DNA of 64,000 nt from Nemertoderma westbladi (Eukaryota; Animalia; Xenacoelomorpha): contig JAUCBJ010000593.1 in assembly GCA_032718475.1 (NCBI GenBank), positions 12,640 through 76,639 on the forward strand. Reading direction: 5' to 3'. The notes beneath the pieces are model-generated. The model was not told where the DNA came from. It searched no databases and was given only the letters and a program-made list of their open reading frames with translations. Shown here piece by piece: positions 1,715 to 25,000 of the stretch; the first letter of the stretch is position 1, and each line of letters opens with the position of its first letter. The translations under genes were made by a program, and so were the position numbers.

Positions 1715-1792
1715 GTAAGTCCTGAAAAGTCATAAAATTAGACTCCTAGTGCCTTTACACTTGTGTTGGCACTTCCTAGTAAAGCAATATAA

Positions 1793-3933
1793 TCCCCTCC
1801 ATCTCCTCTATAAGGCCCCCCCTTCCATATATCCCAGTCTCCCACCTCCCTTCATCTCCTCTATAAGGTCACCCTTCCATATATCCCAGCCTCCCACCTC
1901 CCTCCACCTCCTCTATAAGGGCCCCCTTCCATATATCCCAGCCTCCCACCTCCCTTCATCTCCTCTATAAGGTCACCCTTCCATATATCCCAGCCTCCCA
2001 CCTCCCTCCACCTCCTCTATAAGGGCTCTCCTTCAATATATCCCAGCATCCCACCTCCCTCCACCTCCTCTATAAGGGCCCCCTCCATATATCCCAGCCT
2101 CCCACCTCCCTTCATATCCTCTCTAAGGGCTCCCCTTCCATATATATCAGCCTCCCACCTCCCTCCATCTCCTCTATAAGGGATCCCCTTCCATATATCC
2201 CAGCCTCCCACCTCCCTTCATCTCCTCTCTAAGGGCCCCCCTTCCATATATATCAGCCTCCCACCTCCCTCCATCTCCTCTATAAGGGATCCCCTTCCAT
2301 ATATCCCAGCCTCCCACCTCCCTTCATCTCCTCTCTAAGGGCCCCCCTTCCATATATATCAGCCTCCCACCTCCCTCCATCTCCTCTATAAGGGATCCCC
2401 TTCCATATATCCCAGCCTCCCACCTCCCTTCATCTCCTCTCTAAGGGCCCTCCTTCCATATATCCCAGCCTCCCACCTCCCTCCATCTCCTCTATAAGGG
2501 ATCCCCTTCCATATATCCCAGCCTCCCACCTCCCTTCATCTCCTCTCTAAGGGCCCCCCTTCCATATATATCAGCCTCCCACTTCTTTCCATCTCCTCTA
2601 TAAGGGATCCCCCCCCCCCCACTTCCCTCCATCTCCTCTATAAGTCCTCTCCTTCCATATATCCCAGCCTCCCACCTCCCACCATCTCCTCTATAAGTCC
2701 TCTCTTTCCATATACCCCAGCCTCCCACATCCCTACATCTCCTCTATAGGGGCTCCCCTTCCACCTCCCTCCATCTCCTCTATAAGGCCTCTCCTTCCAT
2801 ATATCTCAGCCTCCCACCTCCCTCCATCTTCTCTATAAGGTATCCCCTTCCATATATTCCAACCGCCCACCTCCCTTCAGCTCCTCTATAAGGTCACCCT
2901 TCCATATATCCCAGCCTCCCACCTCCCTCCACCTCCTCTATAAGGGCTCTCCTTCAATATATCCCAGCATCCCACCTCCCTCCACCTCCTCTATAAGGGC
3001 CCCCTCCATATATCCCAGTCTCCAACCACCCTCCATCTCCTCTATAAGGCCTCTCCTTCAATATATCCCAGCCTCCCACCTCCCTCCATCTTCTCTATAA
3101 GGTATCCCCTTCCATATATCCAACCGCCCACCTCCCTTCAGCTCCTCTATAAGGTCACCCTTCCATATATCCCAGCCTCCCACCTCCCTCCACCTCCTCT
3201 ATAAGGGCTCTCCTTCAATATATCCCAGCATCCCACCTCCCTCCACCTCCTCTATAAGGGCCCCCTCCATATATCCCAGTCTCCAACCTCCCTCCATCTC
3301 CTCTATAAGGCCTCTCCTTCCATATATCCCAACCTCCCACCTCCCTCCATCTCCTCTATAAGGCCTCTCCTTCCATATATATCAGCCTCCCACCTCCCTC
3401 CATCTCCTCTATAAGGCCTCTCCGCTCTACAACTTGTATTTATTAATGTAGGCCTCTCCTTCCATATATCCCAACCTCCCACCTCCCTCCATCTCCTCTA
3501 TAAGGCCTCTCCTTCCATATATCCCAGCCTCCCACCTCCCTCCACCTCCTCTATAAGGGCTCTCCTTCAATATATCCCAGCATCCCACCTCCCTCCACCT
3601 CCTCTATAAGGGCCCCCTTCCATATATCCCAGTCTCCAACCACCCTCCATCTCCTCTATAAGTCCTCTCCTTCCATATATATCAGCCTCCCACCTCCGTC
3701 CATCTCCTCTATAAGGCCTCTCTGCTCTACAACTTGTATTTATTAATGTAGGCCTCTCCTTCCATATATCCCAACCTCCCACCTCCCTCCATCTCCTCTA
3801 TAAGGCCTCTCCTTCCATATATCTCAGCCTCCCACCTCCCTCCATCTCCTCTATAAGGCCTCTCCGCTCTACAACTTGTATTTATTAATGTAGGCCTCTC
3901 CTTCCATATATCCCAACCTCCCACCTCCCTCCA
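1793..3933. repeat. 53-bp pyrimidine-rich satellite (CCTTCCATATATCCCAGCCTCCCACCTCCCTCCATCTCCTCTATAAGGCCTCT), left part
   Basis: Tandem units visible, some with a 36-bp insert (CCGCTCTACAACTTGTATTTATTAATGTAGGCCTCT). Interrupted at 3934 by the LTR element. Confidence 0.97.
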
Positions 3934-5117
3934 TGTAAAGGCTTTTGCGTAATTAGCCGGTTATTTTCCCCGTAAAGTACTTTGTAGTTGGTTTAACAGG
4001 CATAAAAGGCCTTGTCCTTACTGTACTGTTGTTTTAGAGGACATAAAAGCCATTTCTTCTGTATGTGTACTTTAGCGGACATGATTAGCAATTTTATGAC
4101 GCAATGCGCCAAATCCTCTGTAAACAGTGTAGCTACCATGACGACGGCTAACAGCTGATGCTGTATACGTGGACCTTTTCTTTGTTCTCTGTTCCTTCTT
4201 TGTTCGGTCGACCAATCAGAGCGTTTTTTGCCTCTGTGTTAGAGATTGTATATAGAAACTCGTGGAGTTGAGTCAGTATGTGATTTTGTCCACAGCCTAC
4301 AACATCGGCTTTGGAACCTCCGTGTTTCAGTCTTTAGTCCAACATTAGTAGGCTTAATTATAGAACATATATCCATTATCTCACTCACTTAACTAATCAT
4401 ACATAACATATCATATCTCAATAATCATAACTTACTCATTCATAACTTAACATTGTACTGCTATTTACTGTCGTTTATTCATTATTTGTTGATGGAATAT
4501 TATATTTGGAATACTGATAAATAATCAGACACCCCAATCTTCTTGATATACTAAAGGTTAGAGAGACCGGTTACATATAACGATTGCGACTTACATTAAG
4601 TGGTTTGAAGTGAATCTAATGCTATTTTATTGGCCCTACACGTATTGTCTGTTGTTCTCCTTATATGTGACTAAAATTAGTGAAGGTCAGCAGATTGGTG
4701 TGCAACATTGTGCAGTATTGTGTATGATCGTGATTGATAACGAAGCATCTCCTAAAGAATGCGCCATATACGTGAATCTATAGCCATCCCGTTGTGTCTA
4801 GTTTAAGTCATAACTCTGTTTATATATTTAGAGCGCCACGTCCTAAAGGAACTGTTAATATTTCCCGAAAGTGAATAATATTTGTCAGAGATTATATATA
4901 TTACGATCAGTCGAATAATACAGTAGGCCTACCCCGCAATACGGTTAGGCTTCCGAATCCAATCTCCCGGGTATATCCAGCGGGTGAATGATCGCGCATA
5001 GACTGGTTTCGGTTAATGTAGTGTATCAAATACTTGTCATAGGCTAAAGACTATCTATCATCTAAAAGACATCCCAATTTGGCAGGTTAAACTGCTAAAG
5101 GTCTGAAAGCGCAAACA
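3934..5117 (+). repeat. 5' LTR (1184 bp)
   Basis: TG...CA termini; matches 17829-19011 with roughly 15 differences by manual comparison. Confidence 0.95.
4212..4277 (+). promoter_or_regulatory. Candidate LTR core promoter (CCAAT box, TATA-like, Inr-like TCAGT)
   Basis: CCAAT 4212-4216, TATATAGA 4249-4256, TCAGT 4273-4277 in plausible order and spacing. Motif evidence only. Confidence 0.35.
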
Positions 5118-5521: not shown

Positions 5522-6097
5522 AGACAATTTGTAGGCTAGACTGTTGTCTGACTGTTGTTAGGTCTGAAGAGACTGTAGTGTGTGTAGAGCATATGTCCGA
5601 AAAAGTATTAGTTAGGAAAGTAGGGGCTGCCAGTGCTGTGAGGTGGACCCCCTCGAAAGAATAAGTCGTACTACTCGGTTAGAACGCATACTAACTAACC
5701 ATTTCGGAGTTTGCATATACTGTAGTGTATTTAGGCTTGATAGTAGTCTGCCAGCGTTTTCTGTACTTTGTTTGTGTAGTTTGTACGGGTAGCGTAATAT
5801 TTCTTACTTAGATAATTTGTAGGCTGGATTTTGTCTGGCTGTTGTTAGGTCTTGAGAGATTTCGGTGTGTGTAGAGTGTATGTCCGATAAAGTGCCAGTT
5901 GGGAACGTAGGGGCTTCCAGAGCTGTGAGGTAAACCCCCTCGAAAGAATAAGTCGTCCTACTAGGTTAGAACGCATACTAACTAACCATTTCGGAGTCTG
6001 CATATACCATAGTTTGTTTGGGCTTGATAGTAGTCTGTCAGTATTTGGTCTGCATTTTGTTTGAGTAGTCTGTACGCGTAGCGTAATATTTATTATT
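5522..6097. repeat. Diverged ~288-bp tandem duplication in the element's 5' leader
   Basis: AATTTGTAGGCT...CCCCCTCGAAAGAATAAGTCGT...GTAGCGTAATATTT occurs at ~5522-5809 and ~5810-6097. Confidence 0.85.
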
Positions 6098-7298
6098 CAG
6101 AGTTTATGCGATTATTCGCAACATTCATATCCCCAAGTTTATTCCTACAGTAATTGTGCTTGTTATATATACCGTTATAGTTAAACTAACCCCGGTACTA
6201 CATCAGGGCTGCTTGGCGTAGGTAAAGACTGGAGATTTTGTGCTTTGGTCACTCTGGCAGATACCGTGGTTCTTTTAGCTGTTCAAGTATTTTAACTACT
6301 AATTATATTTGTTGTATAAGTACTTGTACCTAATTTAGGGTTTAGTGTACAGTACTTTCCGAAGGTGATTAGTGTGTAGGCAGTATATTTGTGTTGTAAA
6401 GTGGTTAATAGGCACGTTGGTTCTGGTAGACCGCGGTAATTAACTTCTAGGTAGGAACACTCCGTGATACATAACGTAGTACTTATAGCGATATGGCTAT
6501 AAGTCGTCAGACGGTGGTATTTTCCTATCTGGACAACGCAGTATATTTACTACTACTTATTATTTTCAAATACCGTAGTACCCTGTCCTTTGTAATAACC
6601 AGATATTCTAACCCTTTGTTAGGCTGGTTAGTAGACTTCTTGTAAAATTACCCTAAAAATTCGTACTTGTAAATTTTTGTGTTTATTTAGAGATTGTAAT
6701 CTCACCCCGAATTGTATGTAATTTGTAGTATTAAGTAACTTAGGTAAATTAGAATTATTTGTTTTAGTGTCCAACAAGTAGCACTTCACTGAGAGCACAC
6801 AGCTTCTGTGTAGTGACTCCCCCAGAAATAATAACATTTATTTCAAATATTGACAAAAACCCATTTTAACGGGTATATATATTATAAATCAACTCAAACC
6901 GATTTATAAAATAGTAGGCCTGTCATACAACAATTAGGTCTAAATATCAGTTGGACTACTGCTTAAATAATGGTAATAAAGTAAGTTAAAGTAACCAAGT
7001 AACCCTAAAATTCAGAAATTCAGTTATTCTAAAATAATTGACATACCGGTATTCACGATAGGCCTATTATATATTTATAAATTTAGGCTGAAATTATACC
7101 GGTATTCTGTAATTAATTCTAGTTCATAATTATACTTATATATACTATAAGCATACCGGTATTCTAATATATTATATATATATCACGCTACACTGAGTAG
7201 CAGTATCGGTAATTAATTACTAGGCTAACAGTGATACTGAATTACTAGACTTGCTTAAACTGTAATAGAGCAGTAGGCATTCAACTGTACAAACAAAC

Positions 7299-10200
7299 AT
7301 GTCTGACACTAAACAAAACCTGTCGGACAGTCTCCTAGATACAACCATCTGTGACCCAGACAGGAGTGTGGAACGTGAGAGACCGAAGTTCAATTCACAT
7401 CCTACTGTAAGAAAGATCATCCCTCCAGTAGTAATATCAGACCCTAGGCTGGTCCAACACCGTAGGTCTATCATAGGCACTCGAGCTCAGGTCAAGCGGG
7501 ACCAAGAAGCAGCGGAACCGCAACAACCCGCGAGCCAAGAACTTATTTCTCAACGGCCCGACAGCTCCAGTAGTGCGGACACTGTAGAGCTGACACCCGA
7601 GCACGGAGCAAAGATGACAGATGCGGTTTATTCGGACCCCCTTCTCATCCTTCCTGCAGCCGTACTCACTAGGTTATTGATTGCGGTGGAAGAACACCAG
7701 ATCGATTGGGCGAGAAATAAGCGATCGACTAAAGATAGTTATGCGGGATACACAAGGGAAGAACTGAAGTCTATTGTCGAGTCGCAATGGAACTTCCCCG
7801 GACCCGGACTCCCGTTTGATTTATCAGAAGCTGCCTGGGAAGACATACACAGGATGGGAGTAACCAAGGAAACCATCGATCCAGCTGTGTGGAAGAGGTC
7901 CGCAGCCGGATACGCACAGGGATTCTTCAGCTCTATGGACCGATTAAAAGAACAACTGTTTCAACAACCCCAAGGACCTCAAGAGCAGGGACAGCTGCTT
8001 TATCAAGTTAGAGAAAGAATTCTACGAATCAGGCTAATCTTATCGGCCTTTGAGGAGGCTTCTAAAAGAAGACAAGACACGTCGTTGCAAGTTGTCGTAA
8101 AGACTTGGTTTCAACGGGTGAGTCTCCAGGATCAAGGAACGGCTCAGTGGAAAGCTCAGCTGGAGGAGCGCTCAACCCATGGAGAATCAACAGACGCTAC
8201 TTTTTCCCAAGTGGAAAGTGAAGCGACGGCAGAGAAACCGCATAAGAGGGATGCCATTGACATCTATCTGTCAGACTATCAGCGCTTTTTAGGAGATGAA
8301 GAGTTGAGGAGAAGGTTAGATGGACTTAGCCCTAATAGTGAAGGAACCCAGCGTGTGTTGGACGCCATCGATGTGGATATGAGAGCTGCGAACCAAGCTA
8401 GATTTGATGAACGCCTTCGCATCACTAGAGTCCAAGAAGAACAAGTGAAGAAAAAACGTATAGAAGACAGAAAGGCAGCGGCAGCAGCAGTGGCAGCTGC
8501 AGAAGCAGAAAGAAAAGCGGCAGTAGCAGCGGCAGAGGCAGAGGCGGAAAGAAAAGCGGCAGCGGCAGAAGCGGAAAGAAAGGCGGCAGTGGCAGCGGCC
8601 GAAGCGGAAAGAAAAGCGGCAGAGGCAGTGGCAGAAGCAGAACGGAGAGCGGCTGAAGAAACCACCCAATTAGAATTGGAAAACATTCAGGAGAATCAAG
8701 ACTGCATAAATAAACAGTTAACAGCTAGTAATATGCAGATGATGAATCGATCTACTCCCAAAAGACAGGGATATACATCATCTGAGGAAGGCGATACCAC
8801 CGATACTGAAGGCAAAGGAAATAGATCTCGTCTAAGCAGACGTAGAAGAACATCCCACCGTCAGAAATTGCCTGATTTGCCTCCAGCTGTTAGAAGGCAA
8901 CTAAATAACACAAACTTAGGTAGTACAGAACCCACAGACCAAATAATTAAAATAGAAAGACTCCCTACTATAGTAGATGAGCCTGAAATAATTAGGCCTG
9001 TTCCCGAAGCCACCCCTTCGGTGGTAGAGACACCTGTACTCCCTGAACCTACCTCTAAATTCCCTCTGCACAGCACTAAGCTACCTGTGCCCAGCAGAAC
9101 AGCCCATGAGACAATCCATGTCCTGGACTCCGAGCGAAATATTAATGATTTGTCGCCCGTTGTCCCTCGTCCGCCCGCTACAACGTTGGCGGCTCCCTCT
9201 TCGGCGGTCGAGTGGGTGGATGAGAGACGATGGGGGATGGATCTCCTGCTCGGGCAGATGCAGGAGACCGTTCAAAAATTCAAGGGCACAGTAAGGGAAA
9301 GTAGGTTAGAGTTGCAAGAAGTGCAGCAAAGTATCGCGCTAGAACGCGATAAATTAGTAAATACACAAAAGGGTATACCACCACCCCCTGTAACAATGTG
9401 TCAACCTGTTAGGTCTGAAGTGTTTCATGCGCAAGGTGTGGAGCCTACACGCATCTATACTGCTAGTGAAGTAGAAACTCCTATAGTAAACCCTATTAAG
9501 GGTAATTATAAACCTGTTGATAATGATATTCCCTATAGACCTGATCATAATCCGAGAAATTTATATACCGATAACTCGATATTAAATAACACGATGGCCC
9601 AAGAAAGTTTTACGCGTCAAATGGCTAGAACCGAAGCCCGTCAAGCGGTAAAGGTGGGAGAGATAGTCAAGTTCAATGGAGATGAGATGAAATGGTTACC
9701 TTTTAATGAATATTATAAAGATAACATACAGAACTCTGTACTATCTAATGGAGAGAAACTTAGATTCCTCATCGAGTGCTTGGAAGGAACTCCCAAGTTA
9801 ATGGCGTTAAAGATTATTGGACATCCCGATGGATTAAGACAAGTTTGGGATACCCTAAACATCAGGTATGGTAATAGGACTAACATAGCTAGGTATTTAT
9901 ATGCAAAATTAATGGCGCCCCGAAAGTTTCTTAGCAGCGGGATTATAGAGTTTTCCGACGAGATTCAGGAGATCTGTAGACAACTAGATTGGTTAGGTAA
10001 GTCTCATGAATACCAGAATTCTATGGTTGTAGGAGCCTTAGTATCTAATTTGCCCAAGGGCGGAGTAGGTACACGCTGGGACAAGACAGTGTTATACATG
10101 ATGGAACAACAACGAAGAGATCCTACCATGGCTGATCTCATGTCATTCTTAGATGGAGAAGTGAAATTGCAGCTCCTAAAGCAGTCCAGAGAGAAGACAC

Positions 10201-11876
10201 CGGAAAACAAGGTAAGTGAGAAACCCGTTTCTAGGAAAAAGGTAATACCAGTGTGTTATACAGACGACGGCGAAAGCCAGGCTTCTCAAGAGGAAGACAA
10301 CGGGAAAGACACTGAAAGATCTTACTATGACAACAAAGCGCTTAAGGACGTAAGTAAATTCAAGTCTCGAACCAATGACAGGAGAGAACAGGTAAGAAAA
10401 ACTCCTCCTACGTCTCCTAAGAGAATTCATGTAAGAAAGCCCGAGGAAAGAACGAGTGTGCACAACGTTACCCAAAGTAAGGTAAGTAACATCAAACCAA
10501 AATGTGTGCTGTGTGACGGGCCCCACCGTTTAAGTGTGTGTGATGAATTCCTAAGGAAATCACTAAAGGATAGACGGAAAGTCATGTGGGATAAGCGGTT
10601 GTGTTATAATTGCCTCAGACGAGGACACCAACGGCGAACCTGTTACTCCGACGCAAGTAAGGTAAGTGAGGTAAGTGAGTCCGAACTACATGTCCAATTC
10701 AGTGATGTGAACGACACTGACCAAAGTTCTGAGATGGAAGGATTCTATACGGACGAATTCTCAGACGAAAACGAATCCTGTTACTTAATAAATACCGCAG
10801 TGTATCGAGCACTTACGTATGAGAAGGAAACCAACAGTGAGCTCCCCGTAATTACTTCTGATCGACAACCATCTTGGAAAGCGCCAACTTCCAATGTAGG
10901 AATCCGAGAATTTCCTGTAGTACAGTTAAGGGTCCACGGACCTAAAAGGAGTTATATAGTGAACGCCCTCCTTGACTCCGGTAGCACAGGAACATTCATC
11001 GACAAAGAACTAGCCGAAGACATCTTTGCTGGACAACCCAAGTTCCGAACTAAGCTAAACATGTCAGGAATTATGCAGGTTTGGAAATCTACCGTAATAG
11101 CGGATTATTATGTAGGCGCGTTGTCCACCCCCCAGGATGAACTAGGAGAACACAGCATAAGGTCAGTAAAAATGGTCGCGATAAAGAACTTCGCTACCAG
11201 CCAAGTGGAACCTTATAACTGGGATGAGGACGATTTCACCCAGCAGCTTGAAATACCTAGATTCAACACCGATTACCCTGGAGTCCAAATACTCATCGGT
11301 CAAAATGCGCATGAAGCGCTCGAGACATTGGAGAAACGGCCTGCTCAACCGCAACCACTACAAGCTTATGCGGGAAGAACTAGAGTGGGTTGGTACTTTA
11401 CTGGCCCTTCCCGTAGAACTCTCATGGAAAGATTACCGAAAGATCAGGTATATCAATTAAGTGAACGGGAAGTGGAGAGCAGTGAAGTTGACGACCCAAC
11501 TGAGGGAACACCATACTCCTCAGATAATGACGATATCCACTCCAATGTAGATCAATGGAGACATTGCCCCGAGACGATTAATCTAGCCGACATCGCCTCC
11601 AGAGGAGCAACTCCTCAAGAACTGACAGATACTCCAGACTGGTTAGGTGAACCCGACTTCCTAAGTAAAGAAGATGAATGGCCTCCCCACCTTAACCCGG
11701 CTGAGATTAGACAGGCCAAGGGAGCGGAGAAAGTAACACAACCACTCAATCGCCCAGCTGGTCGTTTATGTTTACTGGAAAGAGACCGAAAACTGTCCAG
11801 AAACTATGGAAGGCAAGATACTCTTCCCACGACCACCTCCCTAATCCAACAAATATCTAGGGACTCCATAACGTAA
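7299..11876 (+). CDS. gag: BEL/Pao Gag-protease polyprotein (1525 aa) with RT, most of RNase H and integrase deleted
   Basis: DUF1759-like KFNGDEMKWLPF...LSNGEKLRFLIECLEG; zinc knuckles CVLCDGPHRLSVC and CYNCLRRGHQRRTC; protease NALLDSGSTGTFI...ILIGQ...RTRVGW; Pao RNase H tail QWRHCP..NLADIASRG..W.GEPDFL; pol C-terminus-like NRPAGRLCLLE. No YxDD RT motif or integrase core. Confidence 0.9.
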   Translation: MSDTKQNLSDSLLDTTICDPDRSVERERPKFNSHPTVRKIIPPVVISDPRLVQHRRSIIGTRAQVKRDQEAAEPQQPASQELISQRPDSSSSADTVELTPEHGAKMTDAVYSDPLLILPAAVLTRLLIAVEEHQIDWARNKRSTKDSYAGYTREELKSIVESQWNFPGPGLPFDLSEAAWEDIHRMGVTKETIDPAVWKRSAAGYAQGFFSSMDRLKEQLFQQPQGPQEQGQLLYQVRERILRIRLILSAFEEASKRRQDTSLQVVVKTWFQRVSLQDQGTAQWKAQLEERSTHGESTDATFSQVESEATAEKPHKRDAIDIYLSDYQRFLGDEELRRRLDGLSPNSEGTQRVLDAIDVDMRAANQARFDERLRITRVQEEQVKKKRIEDRKAAAAAVAAAEAERKAAVAAAEAEAERKAAAAEAERKAAVAAAEAERKAAEAVAEAERRAAEETTQLELENIQENQDCINKQLTASNMQMMNRSTPKRQGYTSSEEGDTTDTEGKGNRSRLSRRRRTSHRQKLPDLPPAVRRQLNNTNLGSTEPTDQIIKIERLPTIVDEPEIIRPVPEATPSVVETPVLPEPTSKFPLHSTKLPVPSRTAHETIHVLDSERNINDLSPVVPRPPATTLAAPSSAVEWVDERRWGMDLLLGQMQETVQKFKGTVRESRLELQEVQQSIALERDKLVNTQKGIPPPPVTMCQPVRSEVFHAQGVEPTRIYTASEVETPIVNPIKGNYKPVDNDIPYRPDHNPRNLYTDNSILNNTMAQESFTRQMARTEARQAVKVGEIVKFNGDEMKWLPFNEYYKDNIQNSVLSNGEKLRFLIECLEGTPKLMALKIIGHPDGLRQVWDTLNIRYGNRTNIARYLYAKLMAPRKFLSSGIIEFSDEIQEICRQLDWLGKSHEYQNSMVVGALVSNLPKGGVGTRWDKTVLYMMEQQRRDPTMADLMSFLDGEVKLQLLKQSREKTPENKVSEKPVSRKKVIPVCYTDDGESQASQEEDNGKDTERSYYDNKALKDVSKFKSRTNDRREQVRKTPPTSPKRIHVRKPEERTSVHNVTQSKVSNIKPKCVLCDGPHRLSVCDEFLRKSLKDRRKVMWDKRLCYNCLRRGHQRRTCYSDASKVSEVSESELHVQFSDVNDTDQSSEMEGFYTDEFSDENESCYLINTAVYRALTYEKETNSELPVITSDRQPSWKAPTSNVGIREFPVVQLRVHGPKRSYIVNALLDSGSTGTFIDKELAEDIFAGQPKFRTKLNMSGIMQVWKSTVIADYYVGALSTPQDELGEHSIRSVKMVAIKNFATSQVEPYNWDEDDFTQQLEIPRFNTDYPGVQILIGQNAHEALETLEKRPAQPQPLQAYAGRTRVGWYFTGPSRRTLMERLPKDQVYQLSEREVESSEVDDPTEGTPYSSDNDDIHSNVDQWRHCPETINLADIASRGATPQELTDTPDWLGEPDFLSKEDEWPPHLNPAEIRQAKGAEKVTQPLNRPAGRLCLLERDRKLSRNYGRQDTLPTTTSLIQQISRDSIT

Positions 11877-12418
11877 CAACATACGGAGTGGGTGTGTGAC
11901 TATATTATTTTATATTTATTTTATATTATGTATGTATTATTATGTAATTTTATTATAATCGTTTTCTTTAATTTTATTTAGTAGAATGTTATTTTAGCGA
12001 TTATTTAGTAGATTAGTGCAATATATATTCGCGTTTATTACTTAATTACTTATATATTATATATTTAGTGCGACGGCGAGAAATAATTCTTTTTCTCTTT
12101 CCTTACTGTCCGTATTACATTATAAATACGTGACTACAGTAAGATGAAATATCCGTACTTATTAAAGTACAATAAAGCTCCTACTATATTCAAGTATTAT
12201 TGGTAAGCAGGTATTAGGAATGCAAAGTTCAGATCCTCGTGTCTCGGCTAAACCAAGCTCTGGGTAGACCTTGGAAACGACTTGCCTCTTCTCACTGACA
12301 TTGCTTCGTGCGATATTGCTCTCATACCGTATATTGAATAATACATATAGTAGCGTGATGTCCCTTTAACAGTAGCGTAAAACGCAAAATAAATCTGTTA
12401 AACCCTTTGACCATCTGC

Positions 12419-12682
12419 AATTCTAGTCGATTAAGATATCGCGGCACCCACCGATATACTTGAAGGACAAATTCTAGAAGCAGTGGTTAACGTCCCCAGA
12501 CAAGTTCTGGAATAAACTGGTGCCCATCCTAAATATTAATTATTAATATTTACAAAATCTGTCAAATTTTAGATCCTTTAAAATTCTAGTCGATTAAGAT
12601 ATCGTAGCACTTACCGATACTCTTAAAAAGACAAAATTCCTAGAATCTAGGATCCCAGTCCCCAGACACGTTCTGGAATAAA
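12419..12682. repeat. Two diverged ~100-bp direct repeats (period ~163 bp) in the spacer between ORF1 and ORF2
   Basis: AATTCTAGTCGATTAAGATATCG...GTCCCCAGACAxGTTCTGGAATAAA appears twice. Confidence 0.8.
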
Positions 12683-13501
12683 ATTACGTCTATTTAACAT
12701 TAAATAATAAAATTTACGGGAATAAATTTAAATTCATATATTTCAATGAATTTAATAAATTGTCATTTTATACAATTTATAACATTCCCAAAATTCCATT
12801 AATTAATAGATCATGGGAGCGGAGATTCACCCTATTAAGTGTATTTGTGTGCGAGAATCTCCAATATATAGTCAATAGCCGATAAAATTCATAAAATCAT
12901 ATATAGAGAGGATATTGACAATTAAAGAATTACTATTAAATAGCATCCCAGATCTGTATGCATGAGAATTACCCTAATTCTACCGCTAGCTTTCCATAAT
13001 GTCACCATGGCAACAACCACGCTAGAATTAGAAGTGAGTTAAAAGAACAATAGAAGGCTTGCCCCATTGAATAGCATAGGGAATAAATAGCGCGCTGCTA
13101 GTATCCAAGGATACATAATAAATAAAGTGACATTCTGGAAGGTACTGACTAACGGACAAATGGCCCGAATGTGTACAGTTTATGGCAGTTGTGTTGAATT
13201 TGTGCGTTCATAGGTGAATGTTACTGCTAAAGTGTGTTTACAGTAGCTAGTCGCAATTGTGAAAGTAACCCTAACTCTCCAGAAAGAACCTGAAGTACAT
13301 CTAAGCCTTTGGGACGGACAGTGGAGTGACTTGTGCCGGTTATCGTTGTCGTTGTGTAGCTACATCATTGGCGAAAGCACAGCGACGACGGTACATCGGC
13401 GCTGAGGATCTTGCACTGTCCGGGGGCAAAAGAGGGGTAGGCAGCGACGCCCATAGCCTATTATATAAACTCATTATAATATTGATAAACTCATAGCAGA
13501 T

Positions 13502-16500
13502 ATGACTGAGTTGATAGAAGATGATCTTGGTATCAGGGAGCGATATACTCTACCTTTACAAGCGTTTGTCAATAGCTTGATACGCGGCGACGCTGGTCCA
13601 ACTACTACGGAGGATGATGGTCGTTATATCGAACCACCAATGTCCCCGGAGCAACTTACGCATGAATTGGATTATAGAAAGTTCACCGCTCGCTATACGC
13701 ATCGTAATGGTACGTATATGGACTTCTTAACTACTGGCCATCCTATCGATTTACACGATACGGACGATGTAGACACCGAAAGGGAAATGGTTTATTTAAA
13801 TATCATACCCAGCGGAGTCGGAACGATAAACCGAGAATGGAACACGAGAACTCTATTCGAAACAAACTCGAAAGGGAAGACGTTGAAGAGCCAGATAAAC
13901 GCAGCGACTTTAACGATTATCTGGAATTCCTGAGAGAGACATATCTCAATATTGCCAGCCAACAAATTCTCGAAACTCGATATCCTCAAGGTATACATCA
14001 TGACCCTATGATAGAACTCAAACGACTCTATTTCACTATGATGTATCTTACCGCCGATCGACCGCTACCTGTCGTTCCAGAAAGCTTCGAACAGATGGAG
14101 GAATATTGTAAAACTGGAGAACGATCACCCGCGTTTCCCCTGCAGGACGTGCGTCTTTGGTATTACTGCGACGAATGCCCTAGACCCAATCAGCAAACGG
14201 AAAGACATAAACATCCGCGGAGACGTTGCGCTAAACACAGTTTTACACGATATACTTATGGGAGTTTCGAGCGAAACCTGTTCGACGTATCCCCTACGGT
14301 CGCTCGACTCAAACAATCCCTGAACAAACCAATGATCATAGTTCCGGAATACTCGGTCAGACCTCCTCATTCCTCAGTTAGACCTCAGACTCTTGATCCT
14401 AATAGTATCACGGATCCTCCCAAACTGTATTTGCTGTTCAAAGATCTAGTGATACCCGAACAGTTGATCGGTGGCACTCCGGTAGTAGGCTCACTAGATA
14501 TTCGCCAACCCTACCTAACTGGATTGGGACGCGGTCATCCAATATCGCCGTTTAACCCACACAACCGTCCCGGCTTCACCTCGATACAACCCGTTACGGA
14601 AGTCGAAGAGAGCGTCGTACGAAACGCATTAGACGCTATTCGGCAGAAAATCGGAAAGGGAACTTACGATTGTTTGGAGAAACGTAAATTGCAACAACAA
14701 GTCCAAGCGGTGAAGGAATTAGCTTTACCCCAGTTCAATAGAGAAATACAAAATCTCGAGGAGGACATCAAACGTGGACGAACCTACTCTTTACAAGAGT
14801 TCCTAGATGAGCGTCTACAACAATAAGCGGAGGAAAATCAGCTCGAGGAGAGACATATAGAAATGGATGAGAGAGAAGAAGCAACTTTAGCTCAACCCGA
14901 AGCTCAAATCCTTATGACGGATCTCTACTCTAAAACCATCCTTCATCCCTCGATGGTTCCCCATTTCGGAGACAAACTCTTTGCTACGGTACAACCCCAA
15001 CCGGTTGATATCAACCTAAGATCTCGAGATCTTATCGCTGACGCTCCCATGTTGCAACGTCCGCCCATCGAAGCCGCTCGTGTCGATGGTATACTCGTTG
15101 AACCTCCGGACAATAGAGCGGATCTTGTCCGTCGCATGGTACACGATGTTAACATACGCGCTAGACCTTTACCGGACTCGTTTTATGGGATCAAAGATCA
15201 CCCTTATTACGTCAACCTAACACAATATTACATGGTGAAACCGGAAGATCCTACACATAGTCTGAGGTTTCTGCCACTCATAAATCCTCTCGATCTTGTC
15301 GAACTCGAACAACTGCATAAACATCTGGATCAGTTAGTTAAAATAAACTCATTTCGAAAACCATACAATGTTTCCAGAATAGAGAAAGAAACAATACCTC
15401 CGTATAATCTTGATGGATTCATCAAAACTCGTTTAGTACACTGGAATCTTGACGTGTTATTCGAGGAGGAAAGAATTCAACGATATGGAGATGTGGAAAC
15501 ATATACCACACAATATTTAAAGTATAGAGACCTACCTAATGCTAGCGAATGCGCTACCTTGTGGCATCCTATGGGAATGACCCTCGAAAACGCCACTAAA
15601 GAGTGGAATGAGACTCTTAACGTTATCGAGATGTATGGAGTTGTCACCTACGACAACGAAGGTAGCGTTCCGGTTGGAGAACTGGGAACTACGCGGATGA
15701 TACACATACGAGGACTCGCTGGTTCTACCCACGTATTTACTCGAGCGTGTTCCGATGTGATTGATTATTCTTTTGAGACTCTTACTGAGACACAAAAGAA
15801 ACTCCGACATGGACAATTCGAACTCGCGCAGCGTTATGTCGCCGACACCGAGCGCAAACCGGCCATGGGTATCGATGGATCGATGTTACCCCAGCCCGTG
15901 CTCGAGATGTTGTTTAACGAAAGAATCCTTAAAATCGGCTCAGCTGTTTATGGAGACCTACAAAACGACTTTCGGAATATGGAGAACATTCCATACCCCT
16001 TCGTTGATGGTCAGCTGATTGCTCCCTGGGCAGAAGGCCGAGGTTTCTTCCGCACTATGTATGCAAATACACCCAGCGGCATTACTAAAGTACAATGAAC
16101 CTCCATCGGACATCTTGCCTTTCAAGAATACGGATGGAATTTCAAGGTTGGAAATCCTATAAATTACCAACAAGTATATGGAGATCATTATTCTCGTTTA
16201 TACTTTGATGGACCATTGACTGCACCTGGCGCCGTGTATAGCTTTATGAGTGTTCCACTTCGTCCCTCCTTAGCTATATACACGATCTTTGAAAATGCAG
16301 CACTTGCCGGTTGGCTAGCCGATGTGTGCAGTCGTACCATACGCGCCCATCCCTTAATACTTGGAACCAAACTCGCCAAGTTAGATGAACACAATAAATT
16401 CATCCGCTTCGAATGTTTCAGGCGCTTTCTGACTCCGTTCCGTAACGTTGATAGTCAGTTCAAGGACCGCACTCTGACCAAACTCAGCCTAAGAGACTCA

Positions 16501-17523
16501 GCTGCGGAGAAGCTAAATAGCGCGGGATTTGCTCTCTTTCAGGACGTTTGTATACAGAACTTACATTCATCTGTTATACAAAGACCCCAAATACCCACGG
16601 GTTATTCTGTCGTGGAAGTTCAGACAGTGGGTCCGCTTGCGGAGACAGCCGCACCTACCTCAGCTATGCAATTGGAAGACGAACCAATCTGCTTAGAGTC
16701 TGAAGCGATCCAGCCTACAGCGCCCCGGAGCAGCGATAACGATTACGTCTTGGAGTGGTATCAAGGTCCACAATGTCTCACCGCATACGATTATCGACAC
16801 GCCAACTATGTTTCTCGAAAACGTTGTCGATTATGCGCATCGAGAGACCATTTCACCCCTATGGACTCAGACGTACCCTGCTCCTATTTCCACGAACAGC
16901 CGATGATGGAGATCTATTGTGCGTATTGCAGACTTAATAACTCGCATATTTTTGCAGTCTGCCCCCAATTTATGACCCAATGTCACCACTGTCAACTTAA
17001 AGGACATGCCAGTTATAATTGCCCCTTTAACCGCGATTTAGAAAGCGTAGATGAGATGATTACCCTGCGCTACATCCGAGCTTGGGAAGCGAACGCGGAT
17101 TTACATTGTGAGGCCCGCCATTGCTACTACCCTGGACGCTCTTACGAGGGAGTTTACGCGTTCCATCCTTATTTATTCGCGTCTGTGGAACAAAAAACAC
17201 GCACACCGAGTTACGAACTAATGAAGCGTGTTGGTGAGTGTATTTCCACCAAATTTGTTCGAAAATATCTTAGGAACGTCAATCCTAATGATATTACTTC
17301 ATACCATTTGATCAATTACATCCGTCAAGACCCTGAGTATGGCGATTTATTTATTAACTCGCACCCTGAGTTACAGGAAGTATCTCGACGGCCCTACGAA
17401 TATCGAGCCCGAGAACGCGAGCTGGAAAGAACCATTAAACCAAGGAAGTTTCTCACCACTCACGGTCCACCTACCGCCATTGTCCAGACGACCCGTCAAG
17501 GACCCGTCGCCCTAACGCCCTAA
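13502..17523 (+). pseudogene. Interrupted second ORF (~1,300 codons) of the LTR element: Cys/His motif, DEDDy 3'-5' exonuclease, CCHC zinc knuckles
   Basis: ORFs 13837, 14863 and 16216 share one frame and are separated only by single stops (TAA 14824, TGA 16096). ORF 13502 overlaps in the adjacent frame. ExoI-like GVVTYDNEG, ExoII-like LPQPVLEMLFNERILKIGSAVYGDL, TSIGHLAFQEYGWNFK, ExoIII-like PLRPSLAIYTIFENA; knuckles CAYCRLNNSHIFAVC and CHHCQLKGHASYNC. Confidence 0.75.
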
Positions 17524-17828
17524 CGCGCCCTAAAGGCCGTTAGACCTTGCTCCACTGAAGTTGATATCGATCAACCAGGTACCTCGACCGGGGATACACC
17601 GATCGTAATCCTAAACCTTCTGATGCAATTGTATTGCACCCTTCACCCAGGAGTTACAGCCCTCCTAGTAAAGTGGCTCGCCCCAAAGAGAAAAGGACTC
17701 TTGCTAGCCTCAAAAAACTACGTAAACGCCGTCCGCGTAAGAAAGACTAACTGTTTAGAGTATTTTTATATTTTAGAAACTGTGATTTGTTACATTTTAT
17801 AGACTTAAATCCCATTTTCTGGGAGCGG

Positions 17829-19011
17829 TGTAAAGGCTTTTGCGTAATTAGCCGGTTATTTTCCCCGTAAAGTACTTTGTAGTTGGTTTAACAGGCATAA
17901 AAGGCCTTGTCCTTACTGTACTGTTGTTTTAGAGGACATAAATGCCATTTCTTCTGTATGTGTACTTTAGCGGACATGATTAGCAATTTTATGACGCAAT
18001 GCGCCAAATCCTCTGTAAACAGTGTAGCTACCATGACGACGGCTAACAGCTGATGCTGTATACGTGGACCTTTTCTTTATTCTCTGTTCCTTCTTTGTTC
18101 GGTCGACCAATCAGAGCGTTTTTTGCCTCTGTGTTAGAGATTGTATATAGAAACTCGTGGAGTTGAGTCAGTATGTGATTTTGTCCACAGCCTACAACAT
18201 CGGCTTTGGAACCTCCGTGTTTCAGTCTTTAGTCCAACATTAGTAGGCTTAATTATAGAACGTATATCGTTATCTCACTCACTTAACTAATCATACATAA
18301 CATATCATATCTCAATAATCATAACTTACTCATTCATAACTTAACATTGTACTGCTATTTACTGTCGGTTATTCATTATTTGTTGATGGAATATTATATT
18401 TGGAATACTGATAAATAATCAGACACCCCAATCTTCTTGATATACTAAAGGTTAGAGAGAACGGTTACATATAATGATTGCGACTTACATTAAGTGGTTT
18501 GAAGTGAATCTAATGCTATTTTATAGGCCCTACACGTATTGTCTGTTGTTCTCCTTATATGTGACTAAAATTAGTGAAGGTCAGCAGATTGGTGTGCAGC
18601 ATTGTGCAGTATTGTGTATGATCGTGATTGATAACGAAGCATCTCCTAAAGAATGCGCCATATACGTGAATCTATAGCCATCCCGTTGTGTCTAGTTTAA
18701 GTCATAACTCTGTTTATATATTTAGAGCGCCATGTCCTAAAGGAACTGTTAATATTTCCCGAAAGTGAATAATATTTGTCAGAGATTATATATATTACGA
18801 TCAGTCGAATAATACAGTAGGCCTACCCCGCAATACGGTTAGGCTTCCGAATCCAGTCTCCCGGGTATATCCAGCGGGTGAATGATAGCGCATAGACTGG
18901 TTTCGGCTAATGTAGTGTATCAAATACTTGTCATAGGCTAAAGACTATCTATCATCTAAAAGACATCCCAATTTGGCAGGTTAAACTGCTAAAGGTCTGA
19001 AAGCGCGAACA
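17829..19011 (+). repeat. 3' LTR (1183 bp)
   Basis: Near-identical to 3934-5117; followed by TSD CTCCA and resumption of the satellite. Confidence 0.95.
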
Positions 19012-22000
19012 CTCCATCTCATCTATAAGGCCTCTCCTTCCATATATCCCAGCCTCCCACCTCCCTCCACCTCCTCTATAAGGGCCCCCTTCCATATATC
19101 CCAGTCTCCAACCACCCTCCATCTCCTCTATAAGGCCTCTCCTTCCATATATCTCAGCCTCCCACCTCCTTCCATCTCCTCTATAAGGCCTCTCCGCTCT
19201 ACAACTTGTATTTATTAATGTAGGCCTCTCCTTCCATATATCCCAACCTCCCACCTCCCTCCATCTCCTCTATAAGGCCTCTCCTTCCATATATCTCAGC
19301 CTCCCACCTCCCTCCATCTCCTCTATAAGGCCTCTCCGCTCTACAACTTGTATTTACTAATGTAGGCCTCTCCTTCCATATATCCCAACCTCCCACCTCC
19401 CTCCATCTCCTCTATAAGGCCTCTCCTTCCATATATCCCAGCCTCCCACCTCCCTTCATCTCCTCTATAAGGTCACCCTTCCATATATCCCAGCCTCCCA
19501 CCTCCCTCCATCTCCACTATAAGGGCCCCCTTCCATATATCCCAGTCTCCAACCTCCCTTCATCTCCTCTCTAAGGGCCCCCCTTCAATATATCCCAGCC
19601 TCCCACCTCCCTCCACCTCCTCTATAAGGCCTCTCCTTCCATATATCCCAGCCTCCCACCTCCCTTCATCTCCTCTATAAGGTCACCCTTCCATATATCC
19701 CAGCCTCCCACCTCCCTTCATCTCCTCTCTAAGGGCCCCCCTTCAATATATCCCAGCCTCCCACCTCCCTCCACCTCCTCTATAAGGCCTCTCCTTCCAT
19801 ATATCCCAGCCTCCCACCTCCCTCCACCTCCTCTATAAGGTCCCTCTTGCATATATCCCAGCCTCCCACCTCCCTTCATCTCCTCTCTAAGGGCCCCCCT
19901 TCCATATATCCCAGCCTCCAACCTCCCTGCATCTCCTCTATAAGTCCTCTCCTTCCATATATCCCAACCTCCCACCTCCCTCCATCCCCTCTATAAGGCC
20001 TCTCCTTCCATATATCCCAACCTCCCACCTCCCTCCATCCCCTCTATAAGGCCTCTCCTTCCATATATATCAGCCTCCCACCTCCCTCCACCTCCTCTAT
20101 AAGGGCTCTCCTTCAATATATCCCAGCATCCCACCTCCCTCCACCTCCTCTATAAGGGCCCCCTTCCATATATCCCAGTCTCCAACCACCCTCCATCTCC
20201 TCTATAAGGCCTCTCCTTCCATATATATCAGCCTCCCACCTCCCTCCATCTCCTCTATAAGGCCTCTCCGCTCTACAACTTGTATTTATTAATGTAGGCC
20301 TCTCCTTCCATATATCCCAACCTCCCACCTCCCTCCATCTCCTCTATAAGGCCTCTCCTTCCATATATCTCAGCCTCCCACCTCCCTCCATCTCCTCTAT
20401 AAGGCCTCTCCGCTCTACAACTTGTATTTATTAATGTAGGCCTCTCCTTCCATATATCCCAGCCTCCCACATCCCTCCATCTCCTCTATAAGGTCTCCCT
20501 TCCATATATCCCAGTCTCCAACCACCCTCCATCTCCTCTATAAGGCCTCTCCTTCCATATATATCAGCCTCCCACCTCCCTCCACCTCCTCTATAAGGGC
20601 TCTCCTTCAATATATCCCAGCATCCCACCTCCCTCCACCTCCTCTATGAGGGCCCCCTTCCATATATCCCAGTCTCCCGCCTCCCTCCACCTCCTCTATA
20701 AGGCCTCTCCTTCCACATATATCAGCCTCCCACCTCCCTCCATCTCCTCTATAAGGCCTCTCCGCTCTACAACTTGTATTTATTAATGTAGGCATCTCCT
20801 TCCATATATCCCAACCTCCCACCTTCCTCCATCTCCTCTATAAGGCCTCTCCTTCCATATATCTCAGCCTCCCACCTCCCTCCATCTCCTCTATAAGGCC
20901 TCTCCGCTCTACAACTTGTATTTATTAATGTAGGCCTCTCCTTCCATATATCCCAACCTCCCACCTCCCTCCATCTCATCTATAAGGCCTCTCCTTCCAT
21001 ATATCCCAGCCTCCCACCTCCCTTCATCTCCTCTATAAGGTCACCCTTCCATATATCCCAGCCTCCCACCTCCCTCCACCTCCTCTATAAGGGCCCCCTT
21101 CCATATATCCCAGTCTCCAACCACCCTCCATCTCCTCTATAAGGCCTCTCCTTCCATATATCTCAGCCTCCCACCTCCCTCCATCCCCTCTATAAGGCCT
21201 CTCCTTCCATATATCCCAACCTCCCACCTCCCTCCATCTCCTCTATAAGGCCTCTCCGCTCTACAACTTGTATTTATTAATGTAGGCCTCTCCTTCCATA
21301 TATCCCAACCTCCCACCTCCCTCCATCCCCTCTATAAGGCCTCTCCTTCCATATATCCCAACCTCCCACCTCCCTCCATCCCCTCTATAAGGCCTCTCCT
21401 TCCATATATATCAGCCTCCCACCTCCCTCCACCTCCTCTATAAGGGCTCTCCTTCAATATATCCCAGCATCCCACCTCCCTCCACCTCCTCTATAAGGGC
21501 CCCCTTCCATATATCCCAGTCTCCAACCACCCTCCATCTCCTCTATAAGGCCTCTCCTTCCATATATATCAGCCTCCCACCTCCCTCCATCTCCTCTATA
21601 AGGCCTCTCCGCTCTACAACTTGTATTTATTAATGTAGGCCTCTCCTTCCATATATCCCAACCTCCCACCTCCCTCCATCTCCTCTATAAGGCCTCTCCT
21701 TCCATATATCTCAGCCTCCCACCTCCCTCCATCTCCTCTATAAGGCCTCTCCGCTCTACAACTTGTATTTATTAATGTAGGCCTCTCCTTCCATATATCC
21801 CAGCCTCCCACATCCCTCCATCTCCTCTATAAGGTCTCCCTTCCATATATCCCAGTCTCCAACCACCCTCCATCTCCTCTATAAGGCCTCTCCTTCCATA
21901 TATATCAGCCTCCCACCTCCCTCCACCTCCTCTATAAGGGCTCTCCTTCAATATATCCCAGCATCCCACCTCCCTCCACCTCCTCTATGAGGGCCCCCTT

Positions 22001-25000
22001 CCATATATCCCAGTCTCCCGCCTCCCTCCACCTCCTCTATAAGGCCTCTCCTTCCATATATATCAGCCTCCCACCTCCCTCCATCTCCTCTATAAGGCCT
22101 CTCCGCTCTACAACTTGTATTTATTAATGTAGGCATCTCCTTCCATATATCCCAACCTCCCACCTCCCTCCATCTCCTCTATAAGGCCTCTCCTTCCATA
22201 TATCTCAGCCTCCCACCTCCCTCCATCTCCTCTATAAGGCCTCTCCGCTCTACAACTTGTATTTATTAATGTAGGCCTCTCCTTCCATATATCCCAACCT
22301 CCCACCTCCCTCCATCTCATCTATAAGGCCTCTCCTTCCATATATCCCAGCCTCCCACCTCCCTTCATCTCCTCTATAAGGTCACCCTTCCATATATCCC
22401 AGCCTCCCACCTCCCTCCACCTCCTCTATAAGGGCCCCCTTCCATATATCCCAGTCTCCAACCACCCTCCATCTCCTCTATAAGGCCTCTCCTTCCATAT
22501 ATCTCAGCCTCCCACCTCCCTCCATCCCCTCTATAAGGCCTCTCCTTCCATATATCCCAACCTCCCACCTCCCTCCATCTCCTCTATAAGGCCTCTCCGC
22601 TCTACAACTTGTATTTATTAATGTAGGCCTCTCCTTCCATATATCCCAACCTCCCACCTCCCTCCATCTCCTCTATAAGGCCTCTCCTTCCATATATCCC
22701 AGCCTCCCACCTCCCTTCATCTCCTCTATAAGGTCACCCTTCCATATATCCCAGCCTCCCACCTCCCTCCACCTCCTCTATAAGGCCTCTCCTTCCATAT
22801 ATCCCAGTCTCCCACCTCCCTCCATCTCCTCTATAAGGCCTCTCCTTCCATATATCCCAACCTCCCACCTCCCACCTCCCTCCACCTCCTCTATAAGGCC
22901 CCCCTTCCATATATCCCAACCTCCCACCTCCCTCCATCTCCTCTATAAGGCCTCTCCTTCCATATATCCCACCCTCCAACCACCCTCCATCTCCTCTATA
23001 AGGCCTCTCCTTCCATATATCCCAGCCTCCCACCTCCCTCCACCTCCTCTATAAGGCCCCCCCTTCCATATATCCCAGCCTCCCACCTCCCTCCATCCCC
23101 TCTATAAGGCCCCCCCTTCCATATATCCCAGCCTCCAACCTCCCTGCATCTCCTCTATAAGTCCTCTCCTTCCATATATCCCAACCTCCCACCTCCCTCC
23201 ATCCCCTCTATAAGTCCTCTCCTTCCATATATCCCAACCTCCCACCTCCCTCCACCTCCTCTATAAGGCCTCTCCTTCCATATATCCCAGCCTCCCACCT
23301 CCCTCCACCTCCTCTATAAGGGCTCTCCTTCCATATATCCCAGCCTCCCACCTCCCTCCATCTCCTCTATAAGGTCACCCTTCCATATATCCCAGCCTCC
23401 CACCTCCCTGCATCTCCTCTATAAGGTCCCCCTTCCATATATCCCAACCTCCCACCTCCCTCCATCTCCTCTATAAGGCCTCTCCTTCCATATATCCCAG
23501 CCTCCCACCTCCCTGCATCTCCTCTATAAGGCCTCTCCTTCCATATATCCCAACCTCCCACCTCCCTCCATCTCCTCTATAAGGCCCCCCCTTCCATATA
23601 TCCCAGCCTCCCACCTCCCTCCATCTCCTCTATAAGTCCTCTCCTTCCATATATCCCAGCCTCCCACCTCCCTCCATCTCCTCTATAAGGCCTCTCCTTC
23701 CATATATCCCAGCCTCCCACCTCCCTCCACCTCCTCTATAAGGCCCCCCCTTCCATATATCCCAGCCTCCAACCTCCCTGCATCTCCTCTATAAGTCCTC
23801 TCCTTCCATATATCCCAACCTCCCACCTCCCTCCACCTCCTCTATAAGGCCCCCCCTTCCATATATCCCAGCCTCCAACCTCCCTGCATCTCCTCTATAA
23901 GTCCTCTCCTTCCATATATCCCAACCTCCCACCTCCCTCCATCCCCTCTATAAGGCCTCTCCTTCCATATATCCCAGCCTCCCACCTCCCTCCACCTCCT
24001 CTATAAGGCCCCCCCTTCCATATATCCCAGCCTCCCACCTCCCTCCATCTCCTCTATAAGGTCCTCTCCTTCCATATATCCCAACCTCCCACCTCCCTCC
24101 ATCTCCTCTATAAGGCCTCTCCTTCCATATATCCCAGCCTCCCACCTCCCTCCACCTCCTCTATAAGGCCCCCCCTTCCATATATCCCAGCCTCCCACCT
24201 CCCTTCATCTCCTTTCTAAGGGCCCCCCTTCCATATATCCCAGCCTCCCACCTCCCTCCACCTCCTCTATAAGGTCACCCTTCCATATATCCCAGCCTCC
24301 CACCTCCCTCCATCTCCTCTATAAGGCCCCTCCTTCCATATATCCCAGCCTCCCACCTCCCACCATCTCCTCTATAAGGCCTCTCCTTCCATATATCCCA
24401 ACCTCCCGCCTCCCTCCATCCCCTCTATAAGGCCTCTCCTTCCATATATCTCAGCCTCCCACCTCCCTCCATCTCCTCTATAAGGCCTCTCCGCTCTACA
24501 ACTTGTATTTATTAATGTAGGCCTCTCCTTCCATATATCCCAACCTCCCACCTCCCTCCATCCCATCTATAAGGCCTCTCCTCCCATATATCCCAGCCTC
24601 CCACCTCCCTCCATCTCCTCTATAAGGTCTCCCTTCCATATATCCCAGCCTCCCACCTCCCTCCATCTCCTCTATAAGGCCTCTCCGCTCTACAACTTGT
24701 ATTTATTAATGTAGGCCTCTCCTTCCATATATCCCAGCCTCCCACCTCCCTCCATCTCCTCTATAAGGTCTCCCTTCCATATATCCCAGCCTCCCACCTC
24801 CCTCCATCTCCTCTATAAGGCCTCTCCGCTCTACAACTTGTATTTATTAATGTAGGCCTCTCCTTCCATATATCCCAACCTCCCACCTCCCTCCATCTCC
24901 TCTATAAGGCCTCTCCTTCCATATATCCCAACCTCCCGCCTCCCTCCATCTCCTCTATAAGGTCTCCCTTCCATATATCCCAGCCTCCCACCTCCCTCCA

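What the first reader, a model, noticed from the sequence alone, without database searches (positions are those of the whole stretch)
13502..17523. LTR element encodes a WRN/Mut-7/EXD-like DEDDy 3'-5' exonuclease fused to CCHC zinc knuckles in the env position
Seen: joining the same-frame ORFs gives, in correct order, ExoI VVTYDNEG (D 15652, E 15658), ExoII LPQPVLEMLFNERILKIGSAVYGDL (D 15955), the SIGHLAFQEYGWNFK helix just after the TGA at 16096, and ExoIII-like PLRPSLAIYTIFE (Y 16279, E in place of the usual D). Three C-x2-C-xn-H-xn-C units follow at 16825-17022, and an upstream CDEC...H.H...C..H motif is present. No signal peptide or TM segment is evident, so it is not env-like. Known: this nuclease family includes Mut-7/Nibbler, EXD1 and Egalitarian, which act in small-RNA trimming, piRNA biogenesis and RNA transport. 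From memory, DEDDy extra ORFs have been reported in bdelloid rotifer LTR elements, but I do not recall this large exonuclease-plus-knuckle architecture in a pol-less Pao element. Inference: a transposon-borne RNA nuclease or binder that may counter piRNA/siRNA silencing, process the primer, or proofread cDNA.
Basis: partly seen in the sequence, partly recalled or inferred. Interest (0 to 1): 0.9.

Follow-up and report, generated by a model that had tools for sequence, protein, structure and literature searches.

The report
Retrotransposon-borne degenerate exonuclease with zinc knuckles
A multi-copy Bel/Pao-type jumping element that lacks its own copying enzymes carries a large extra gene, broken in this copy but conserved across the family, whose product joins a distant relative of RNA-trimming exonucleases, probably with a damaged active site, to three zinc knuckles and likely works as an RNA-binding helper rather than an envelope protein.

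Summary
Real, with one correction. The ~1,340-codon ORF (13502-17523; one frame break, two stops) lies before the 3' LTR of a recently inserted Bel/Pao element (LTRs 98.8% alike, 5-bp target duplication) that has gag and protease but no RT, RNase H or integrase. It is not a one-off captured pseudogene: thousands of 80-99% alike contigs from four studies cover it, the stop at 16096 is nearly private to this copy, and 32 of 39 listed variants in the nuclease region are synonymous. Pfam, PDB and 1.84 billion proteins give no significant hit, but profiles from RNase D and WRN-like proteins pick out ExoI and ExoII in order (0 of 2,000 shuffles as good). The domain is thus likely a weak or dead nuclease used to bind RNA; function is untested. 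DEDDy ORF3s are published for rotifer LTR elements, and this scan noted exonuclease-plus-knuckle ORF3s before in gypsy elements on other DNA. New: the Bel/Pao host, size, orphan sequence and probable catalytic loss.

The parts
3934..5117 (+). 5' LTR, TG...CA, 1,184 bp
   Evidence: 14 substitutions and 1 gap against the 3' LTR
3929..3933 (.). left copy of 5-bp target-site duplication in a 53-bp CT-rich satellite
   Evidence: same five bases at 19012-19016
7299..11876 (+). ORF1: Pao-type gag (DUF1759 at 9672-10058), zinc knuckle, aspartic protease (~10956-11024), then short pol remnants; no RT, RNase H or integrase
   Evidence: DUF1759 E 4.7e-12; Asp_protease_2 E 0.0018, under cut-off; remnant motifs near 11556-11690 and 11750-11785 are recalled Pao motifs, no Pfam hit
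11877..13501 (.). AT-rich non-coding spacer with a 164-bp tandem duplication
   Evidence: longest stop-free stretch 67 codons on the + strand; no ORF of 100 codons on either strand
13502..17523 (+). ORF3, about 1,340 codons, broken in this copy by a frame break near 13790 and stops at 14824-14826 and 16096-16098
14167..14238 (+). Cys/His cluster, possible zinc site; no family match
15574..16350 (+). DEDDy (RNase D / WRN / Egalitarian-like) domain with an insertion of about 45 residues after the third strand; ExoI D15652 and E15658, ExoII D15955, D16006 of the D-x-Q motif; motif III most likely Y16237 with S16249 at the aspartate position, alternatively Y16279 with E16291
16825..17022 (+). three CCHC zinc knuckles
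17821..17828 (+). short purine-rich tract directly before the 3' LTR
17829..19011 (+). 3' LTR
19012..19016 (.). right copy of the target-site duplication

Best explanation
ORF3 is a conserved accessory gene of a multi-copy Bel/Pao LTR retrotransposon family; its product joins a DEDDy exonuclease-like domain, probably lacking the fourth catalytic aspartate, to three CCHC knuckles, and likely works as an RNA-binding adaptor that holds the element's RNA rather than as an efficient nuclease. Shown: element anatomy, family spread, purifying selection, ExoI and ExoII motifs, knuckles, no membrane segment. Inferred: the knuckles grip single-stranded RNA (as in TbRND); the retained D-E-D pocket binds an RNA 3' end (as Egalitarian Glu563 does); the complex shields, localises or helps package element RNA; this copy was either moved in trans by an autonomous partner or lost pol after insertion, and its own ORF3 is dead.
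For: Family gene: 25,134, 8,718, 399 and 124 contigs laid in four runs of four studies, every one of 30 bins covered, two organism labels. Selection: 32 of 39 listed variants in 15560-16400 synonymous against 0.32 expected, p 2e-10; the codons of D15652 and D15955 appear only with silent changes; no indel listed at 25%; 21 of 39 over the whole ORF, p 0.007. DEDDy: the only NCBIfam hits among 18,950 models are two RNase D models on ExoII (E 0.058, 0.15); combined HMM 6.6 bits, 0 of 3,000 shuffles, ExoI and ExoII in register; block test 0 of 2,000. Precedents for binding without cutting: EXD1 (PMC4712191, passages), Egalitarian (10.1101/2025.08.03.668247, passages); knuckles drive RNA binding in TbRND (PMC7797062, section 13).
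Against: No Pfam, PDB or database homolog. The RNase D-only HMM missed the whole ORF and gave 184 of 3,000 shuffles for the domain; the motif III segment alone beat no shuffle test. Three acidic residues kept under selection also fit a still-active enzyme. The variant tables show only the 40 best-supported rows (113 and 1,417 hidden). No RNA substrate, partner or expression was shown.
Confidence: 0.45

Rival explanations
1. ORF3 is an active, non-canonical 3'-5' exoribonuclease (D-E-D plus Glu16291 or another fourth ligand) whose knuckles feed it RNA; it would trim the primer or element RNA ends, like TbRND or the intact rotifer ORF3s.
Against: Two alignments, the longer block score and the spacing favour Y16237 with Ser.
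Confidence: 0.27
2. ORF3 is a counter-silencing factor aimed at host small RNAs: it would bind or trim piRNAs/siRNAs, or compete with EXD1, Nibbler or Egalitarian-like host proteins, helping all copies in trans.
For: Host relatives act in piRNA biogenesis and carry transposon RNA (PMC4712191; 10.1101/2025.08.03.668247); the family is abundant; deletion derivatives lacking most of ORF3 exist (joints), which fits action in trans. Arenavirus ExoN suppresses immune signalling (PMC7968707, abstract and passages).
Against: No small-RNA data; no phylogenetic tie to the piRNA factors could be shown; deletion derivatives are common in any LTR family.
Confidence: 0.15
3. The protein proofreads or trims cDNA during reverse transcription.
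For: WRN and Pol I exonuclease domains belong to the same superfamily.
Against: Separate gene, not fused to RT; CCHC knuckles point to RNA; probable loss of the fourth aspartate; family copies are 80-99% diverged.
Confidence: 0.05
4. The resemblance to DEDDy nucleases is chance and the domain has another fold.
For: No curated-family or database hit; single-sequence model pLDDT 31; hhalign probabilities 4% and 10%.
Against: Three independent blocks in the right order, 0 of 2,000 shuffles, gag, PGM and reversed controls negative; blind RNase D hits; silent-only change seen at two of the aspartates.
Confidence: 0.08

Closest known systems
DEDDy ORF3 of bdelloid rotifer LTR retrotransposons Juno and Vesta, and of Athena/Terminon retroelements (PMC5408684, parts 1-3 of 5 read; PMC6431247 passages)
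   Same: Extra ORF between the gag-pol region and the 3' LTR; DEDDy-type domain; no transmembrane segment; function unproven.
   Different: There the hosts are the Juno and Vesta clades with full pol, homology is strong and the invariant residues are intact (DEED). Here the host is Bel/Pao and pol-less, the ORF is ~1,340 codons with three C-terminal knuckles, homology is remote and motif III is degenerate. Rotifer sequences were not compared directly.
TbRND, Trypanosoma brucei RNase D with C-terminal zinc fingers (PMC7797062, abstract and section 13; PDB 7c42)
   Same: DEDDy domain followed by several CCHC-type fingers that bind RNA.
   Different: Cellular, active, about 350 residues in the crystallised form, fingers close behind the nuclease; no sequence hit to this ORF. 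Probably convergent.
EXD1 and Egalitarian (PMC4712191; 10.1101/2025.08.03.668247; passages)
   Same: DEDDy-fold domain used for RNA binding; links to piRNA biogenesis and to transport of I-factor RNA.
   Different: Host genes. EXD1 has lost most acids; Egalitarian keeps all four. No knuckle array. Orthology not shown.
Dada DNA transposons with a DEDDy domain (PMC3706591, passages)
   Same: Transposon-encoded DEDDy domain in a protein that also has CCHC/CCCC fingers.
   Different: Inserted inside a DDE transposase, all four acids conserved, proposed to act on DNA ends.

Membership tests
Bel/Pao LTR retrotransposon | LTRs with TG...CA ends and short target-site duplication | tested here: met
Bel/Pao LTR retrotransposon | Pao-type gag (DUF1759) and aspartic protease | tested here: met
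   (protease under the curated cut-off)
Bel/Pao LTR retrotransposon (autonomous) | RT, RNase H and integrase | tested here: not met
   none in this copy; other copies not examined for pol
Bel/Pao LTR retrotransposon | placement by RT phylogeny | not testable with these tools
   no RT in the copy; no genome held
DEDDy 3'-5' exonuclease superfamily | ExoI D-x-E at the end of strand 1 | tested here: met
DEDDy 3'-5' exonuclease superfamily | ExoII aspartate | tested here: met
DEDDy 3'-5' exonuclease superfamily | ExoIII Y-x3-D | tested here: not met
   Ser (Y16237 register) or Glu (Y16279 register); no Asp in either
DEDDy 3'-5' exonuclease superfamily | DnaQ-like fold | tested here: inconclusive
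   single-sequence model useless; model from an alignment to DEDDy proteins reached pLDDT 66.9 and matched RNase D at Z 15.1, rmsd 3.4, 181 aligned, which is circular
Pfam PF01612 DNA_pol_A_exo1 | score over the curated cut-off | tested here: not met
   no hit at E<=10
WRN/Mut-7/EXD branch | closer to WRN-like than to RNase D/Rrp6-like members | tested here: inconclusive
   bacterial WRN-like HMM 2.5 bits, RNase D HMM -1.2, combined 6.6; motif III fits RNase D better; no eukaryotic members in the profiles; no tree
DEDDy 3'-5' exonuclease superfamily | metal-dependent exonuclease activity | not testable with these tools
   needs an assay
env glycoprotein | transmembrane anchor | tested here: not met
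   highest 19-residue hydropathy 1.19

The most novel reading that the evidence does not exclude
A Bel/Pao family has turned a captured DEDDy nuclease into its own EXD1/Egalitarian-like RNA adaptor that grabs small RNAs or element RNA 3' ends and so protects the family from germline silencing or routes its RNA in the germline: a protein-level counter-defence encoded by an animal LTR retrotransposon.
Probability: 0.18. Interest if true: 0.85.

Novelty: new variant of a known kind. Interest (0 to 1): 0.55.

Why it matters
It extends nuclease-like accessory genes of LTR retrotransposons from rotifer clades to Bel/Pao, with an orphan sequence that suggests a separate or very old capture. Unlike the low-copy rotifer families, this one is abundant and shows clear purifying selection, so the question of what such ORF3s do can be tested with population data and a simple assay. 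If the domain is a pseudo-nuclease, a transposon has followed the same path from enzyme to RNA adaptor as the host piRNA factors EXD1 and Maelstrom.

Tried and rejected
Homolog searches found nothing: 0 of 5,075 candidates (lengths 699-2,225 only); 0 in 1.84 billion representatives with the piece 14827-16095 (the C-terminal piece was not searched there); phages, plasmids, viral, metagenome and prokaryote-genome collections. PHROGs gave only E 0.06 and 0.32 (the latter an exonuclease family, on ExoI). Single-sequence fold pLDDT 31 and its Foldseek list are meaningless. The alignment-guided model is circular and was not used as proof; the higher TM-scores of Egalitarian were not borne out by Z. 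An RNase D-only profile was too distant. A look-alike search by language-model features was not obtained, so remote relatives by that route remain open. No RNA holder was listed; run X5 is only guessed to be RNA, so expression is neither shown nor excluded. No genome is held, so intact copies, copy number and the autonomous partner could not be sought; contig depth is no copy number. One-off host pseudogene: rejected. env: rejected. Literature: nine searches listed no paper on an exonuclease ORF3 in Bel/Pao; PMC3118150 holds none of the words exonuclease, envelope or non-autonomous (word search only). Repbase, subscription journals and all supplements were not seen and could hold such an annotation.

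Full report
Element. The ORF lies inside a 15-kb LTR element: LTRs at 3934-5117 and 17829-19011, TG...CA ends, 14 substitutions and one gap in 1,184 bp, a 5-bp target duplication inside a 53-bp satellite, and a short purine tract before the 3' LTR. ORF1 (7299-11876) is open over its whole length and encodes a Pao-type gag (DUF1759, E 4.7e-12) and an aspartic protease (E 0.0018, under cut-off). No RT, RNase H or integrase is found; the tail holds two short stretches that I recall as the Pao motif between RNase H and integrase and the end of the Pao polyprotein, with no Pfam support. The 1.6-kb spacer to ORF3 is non-coding. So this copy is non-autonomous and recent.

ORF3. From ATG 13502 to 17523 there are about 96 + 1,243 codons, with a frame break and two stops. 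There is no transmembrane-grade segment.

Family. Five listed runs from four studies hold the stretch. Four were laid: 25,134, 8,718, 399 and 124 contigs at 80% or more, all 30 bins covered in each, under two organism labels. A one-base indel polymorphism near 13790 marks the likely frame break and is seen in part of the family only; joints that skip most of ORF3 show deletion derivatives. The stop at 16096 is nearly private: 139,210 of 139,529 depth units in X1 read otherwise, and likewise in the other three runs. Of 40 rows listed for 15560-16400 (113 hidden), the stop row was dropped; 32 of the other 39 are synonymous against 0.32 expected for transitions (p 2e-10), 28 of 32 among rows under 90% share; the codons of D15652 and D15955 appear only with silent changes. 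Over the whole ORF, 21 of 39 (40 listed, one outside the ORF dropped, 1,417 hidden; p 0.007). This is not a formal dN/dS, but it refutes a one-off captured pseudogene.

Is it DEDDy? Standard searches fail: no Pfam nuclease hit, no PDB hit below E 0.75, no homolog among 5,075 candidates or 1.84 billion representatives. Blind hints exist: the only NCBIfam hits are two RNase D models on ExoII. I then built profiles from natural proteins: 33 RNase D-like domains and 123 bacterial WRN/EXD2-like proteins. RNase D alone was weak (184 of 3,000 shuffles); WRN-like gave 12 of 3,000; the combined profile gave 6.6 bits, 0 of 3,000, with ExoI and ExoII in register, and 2 of 1,000 on the whole ORF. I set wide spacing limits knowing of the insertion, but each block's top site did not depend on them. 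I put the DEDDy assignment at about 90%. The fold test is inconclusive: the single-sequence model failed, and the model guided by DEDDy proteins (pLDDT 66.9; RNase D Z 15.1) is circular.

Motif III. Two candidate registers lie 14 residues apart. The upstream one (Y16237, preceded by P-L-T) was chosen by both MAFFT alignments, scores 8.6 and 5.9 bits over the core against -4.6 and -1.7, gains a further 8.0 and 5.0 bits if the helix is four residues shorter, and lies nearer the family spacing (45 against 59; family 34). The WRN-like profile alone favours neither. In the upstream register the fourth aspartate is a serine, and no family-wide difference is listed there. Neither register has Asp. 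I give the upstream register about 65%.

Mechanism. Loss of the motif III aspartate would remove a ligand of one catalytic metal (established knowledge of DEDD enzymes), so strong activity is unlikely under the better register. Host relatives show what such a domain can do: EXD1 is inactive and binds RNA in piRNA biogenesis (PMC4712191, passages); Egalitarian binds RNA around its site, Glu563 touching the 3'-OH, and does not need its acids (10.1101/2025.08.03.668247, passages); in TbRND C-terminal fingers supply the RNA binding (PMC7797062, abstract and section 13). I therefore commit to an RNA-binding adaptor for element RNA (0.45), ahead of an active non-canonical trimmer (0.27), a small-RNA counter-silencer (0.15), chance resemblance (0.08) and cDNA proofreading (0.05). 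Every functional step is inferred.

Comparison and novelty. DEDDy ORF3s are described for rotifer Juno and Vesta LTR elements and Terminons (PMC5408684, parts 1-3 of 5; PMC6431247 and PMC5718144, passages), and a DEDDy domain sits in some Dada transposases (PMC3706591, passages). Earlier unchecked notes of this scan report Rrp6-like ORF3s, one with a knuckle and one said to be catalytically dead, in gypsy-type elements of other genomes; no look-alike of this sequence was on record. Nine paper searches listed no Bel/Pao case; Repbase and supplements were not seen. It works like the rotifer ORF3 arrangement but is not shown to be of that lineage, and it fails the strict DEDDy motif III test. Verdict: new variant of a known kind, interest 0.55.

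Noticed in passing
window 7299-11876: ORF1 stays open across what look like two in-frame losses (RT-RNase H and integrase), keeping recalled Pao linker and C-terminal motifs; may be a maintained non-autonomous subfamily rather than a chance deletion.
   Followed up: partly
window 5118-5140: No TGG-type primer-binding site directly after the 5' LTR; a 40-bp direct repeat at 5157-5196 and 5215-5254 lies there instead.
   Followed up: no
window 8462-8653: Ala/Glu/Arg/Lys-rich repeat expansion inside gag, probably coiled coil.
   Followed up: no
window 5522-6101 and 12391-12717: Tandem duplications of about 290 bp (85%) in the leader and 164 bp (73%) in the spacer before ORF3.
   Followed up: no
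window 13868-16674 and 14863-~17600: Joints in public contigs skip most of ORF3: deletion derivatives of the family exist.
   Followed up: no
window 34463-35752 (-) and 37697-39517 (+): Two divergent, uninterrupted single-exon ORFs in a satellite-rich region: an M20 peptidase and a phosphoglucomutase (Pfam); the latter is 36-40% identical to actinobacterial proteins among the 80 loci shown. Retrocopies, compact genes or transfer were not told apart.
   Followed up: no
window 47291-48495: Remnants of another Pao element: Peptidase_A17 (E 6e-14) and DUF5641 (E 5e-21).
   Followed up: partly
window 1770-3933, 19012-27300, 53389-64000: The element sits in a strongly skewed 53-bp CT-rich satellite; the window ends in a near-perfect 32-bp array of over 300 copies.
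   Followed up: no
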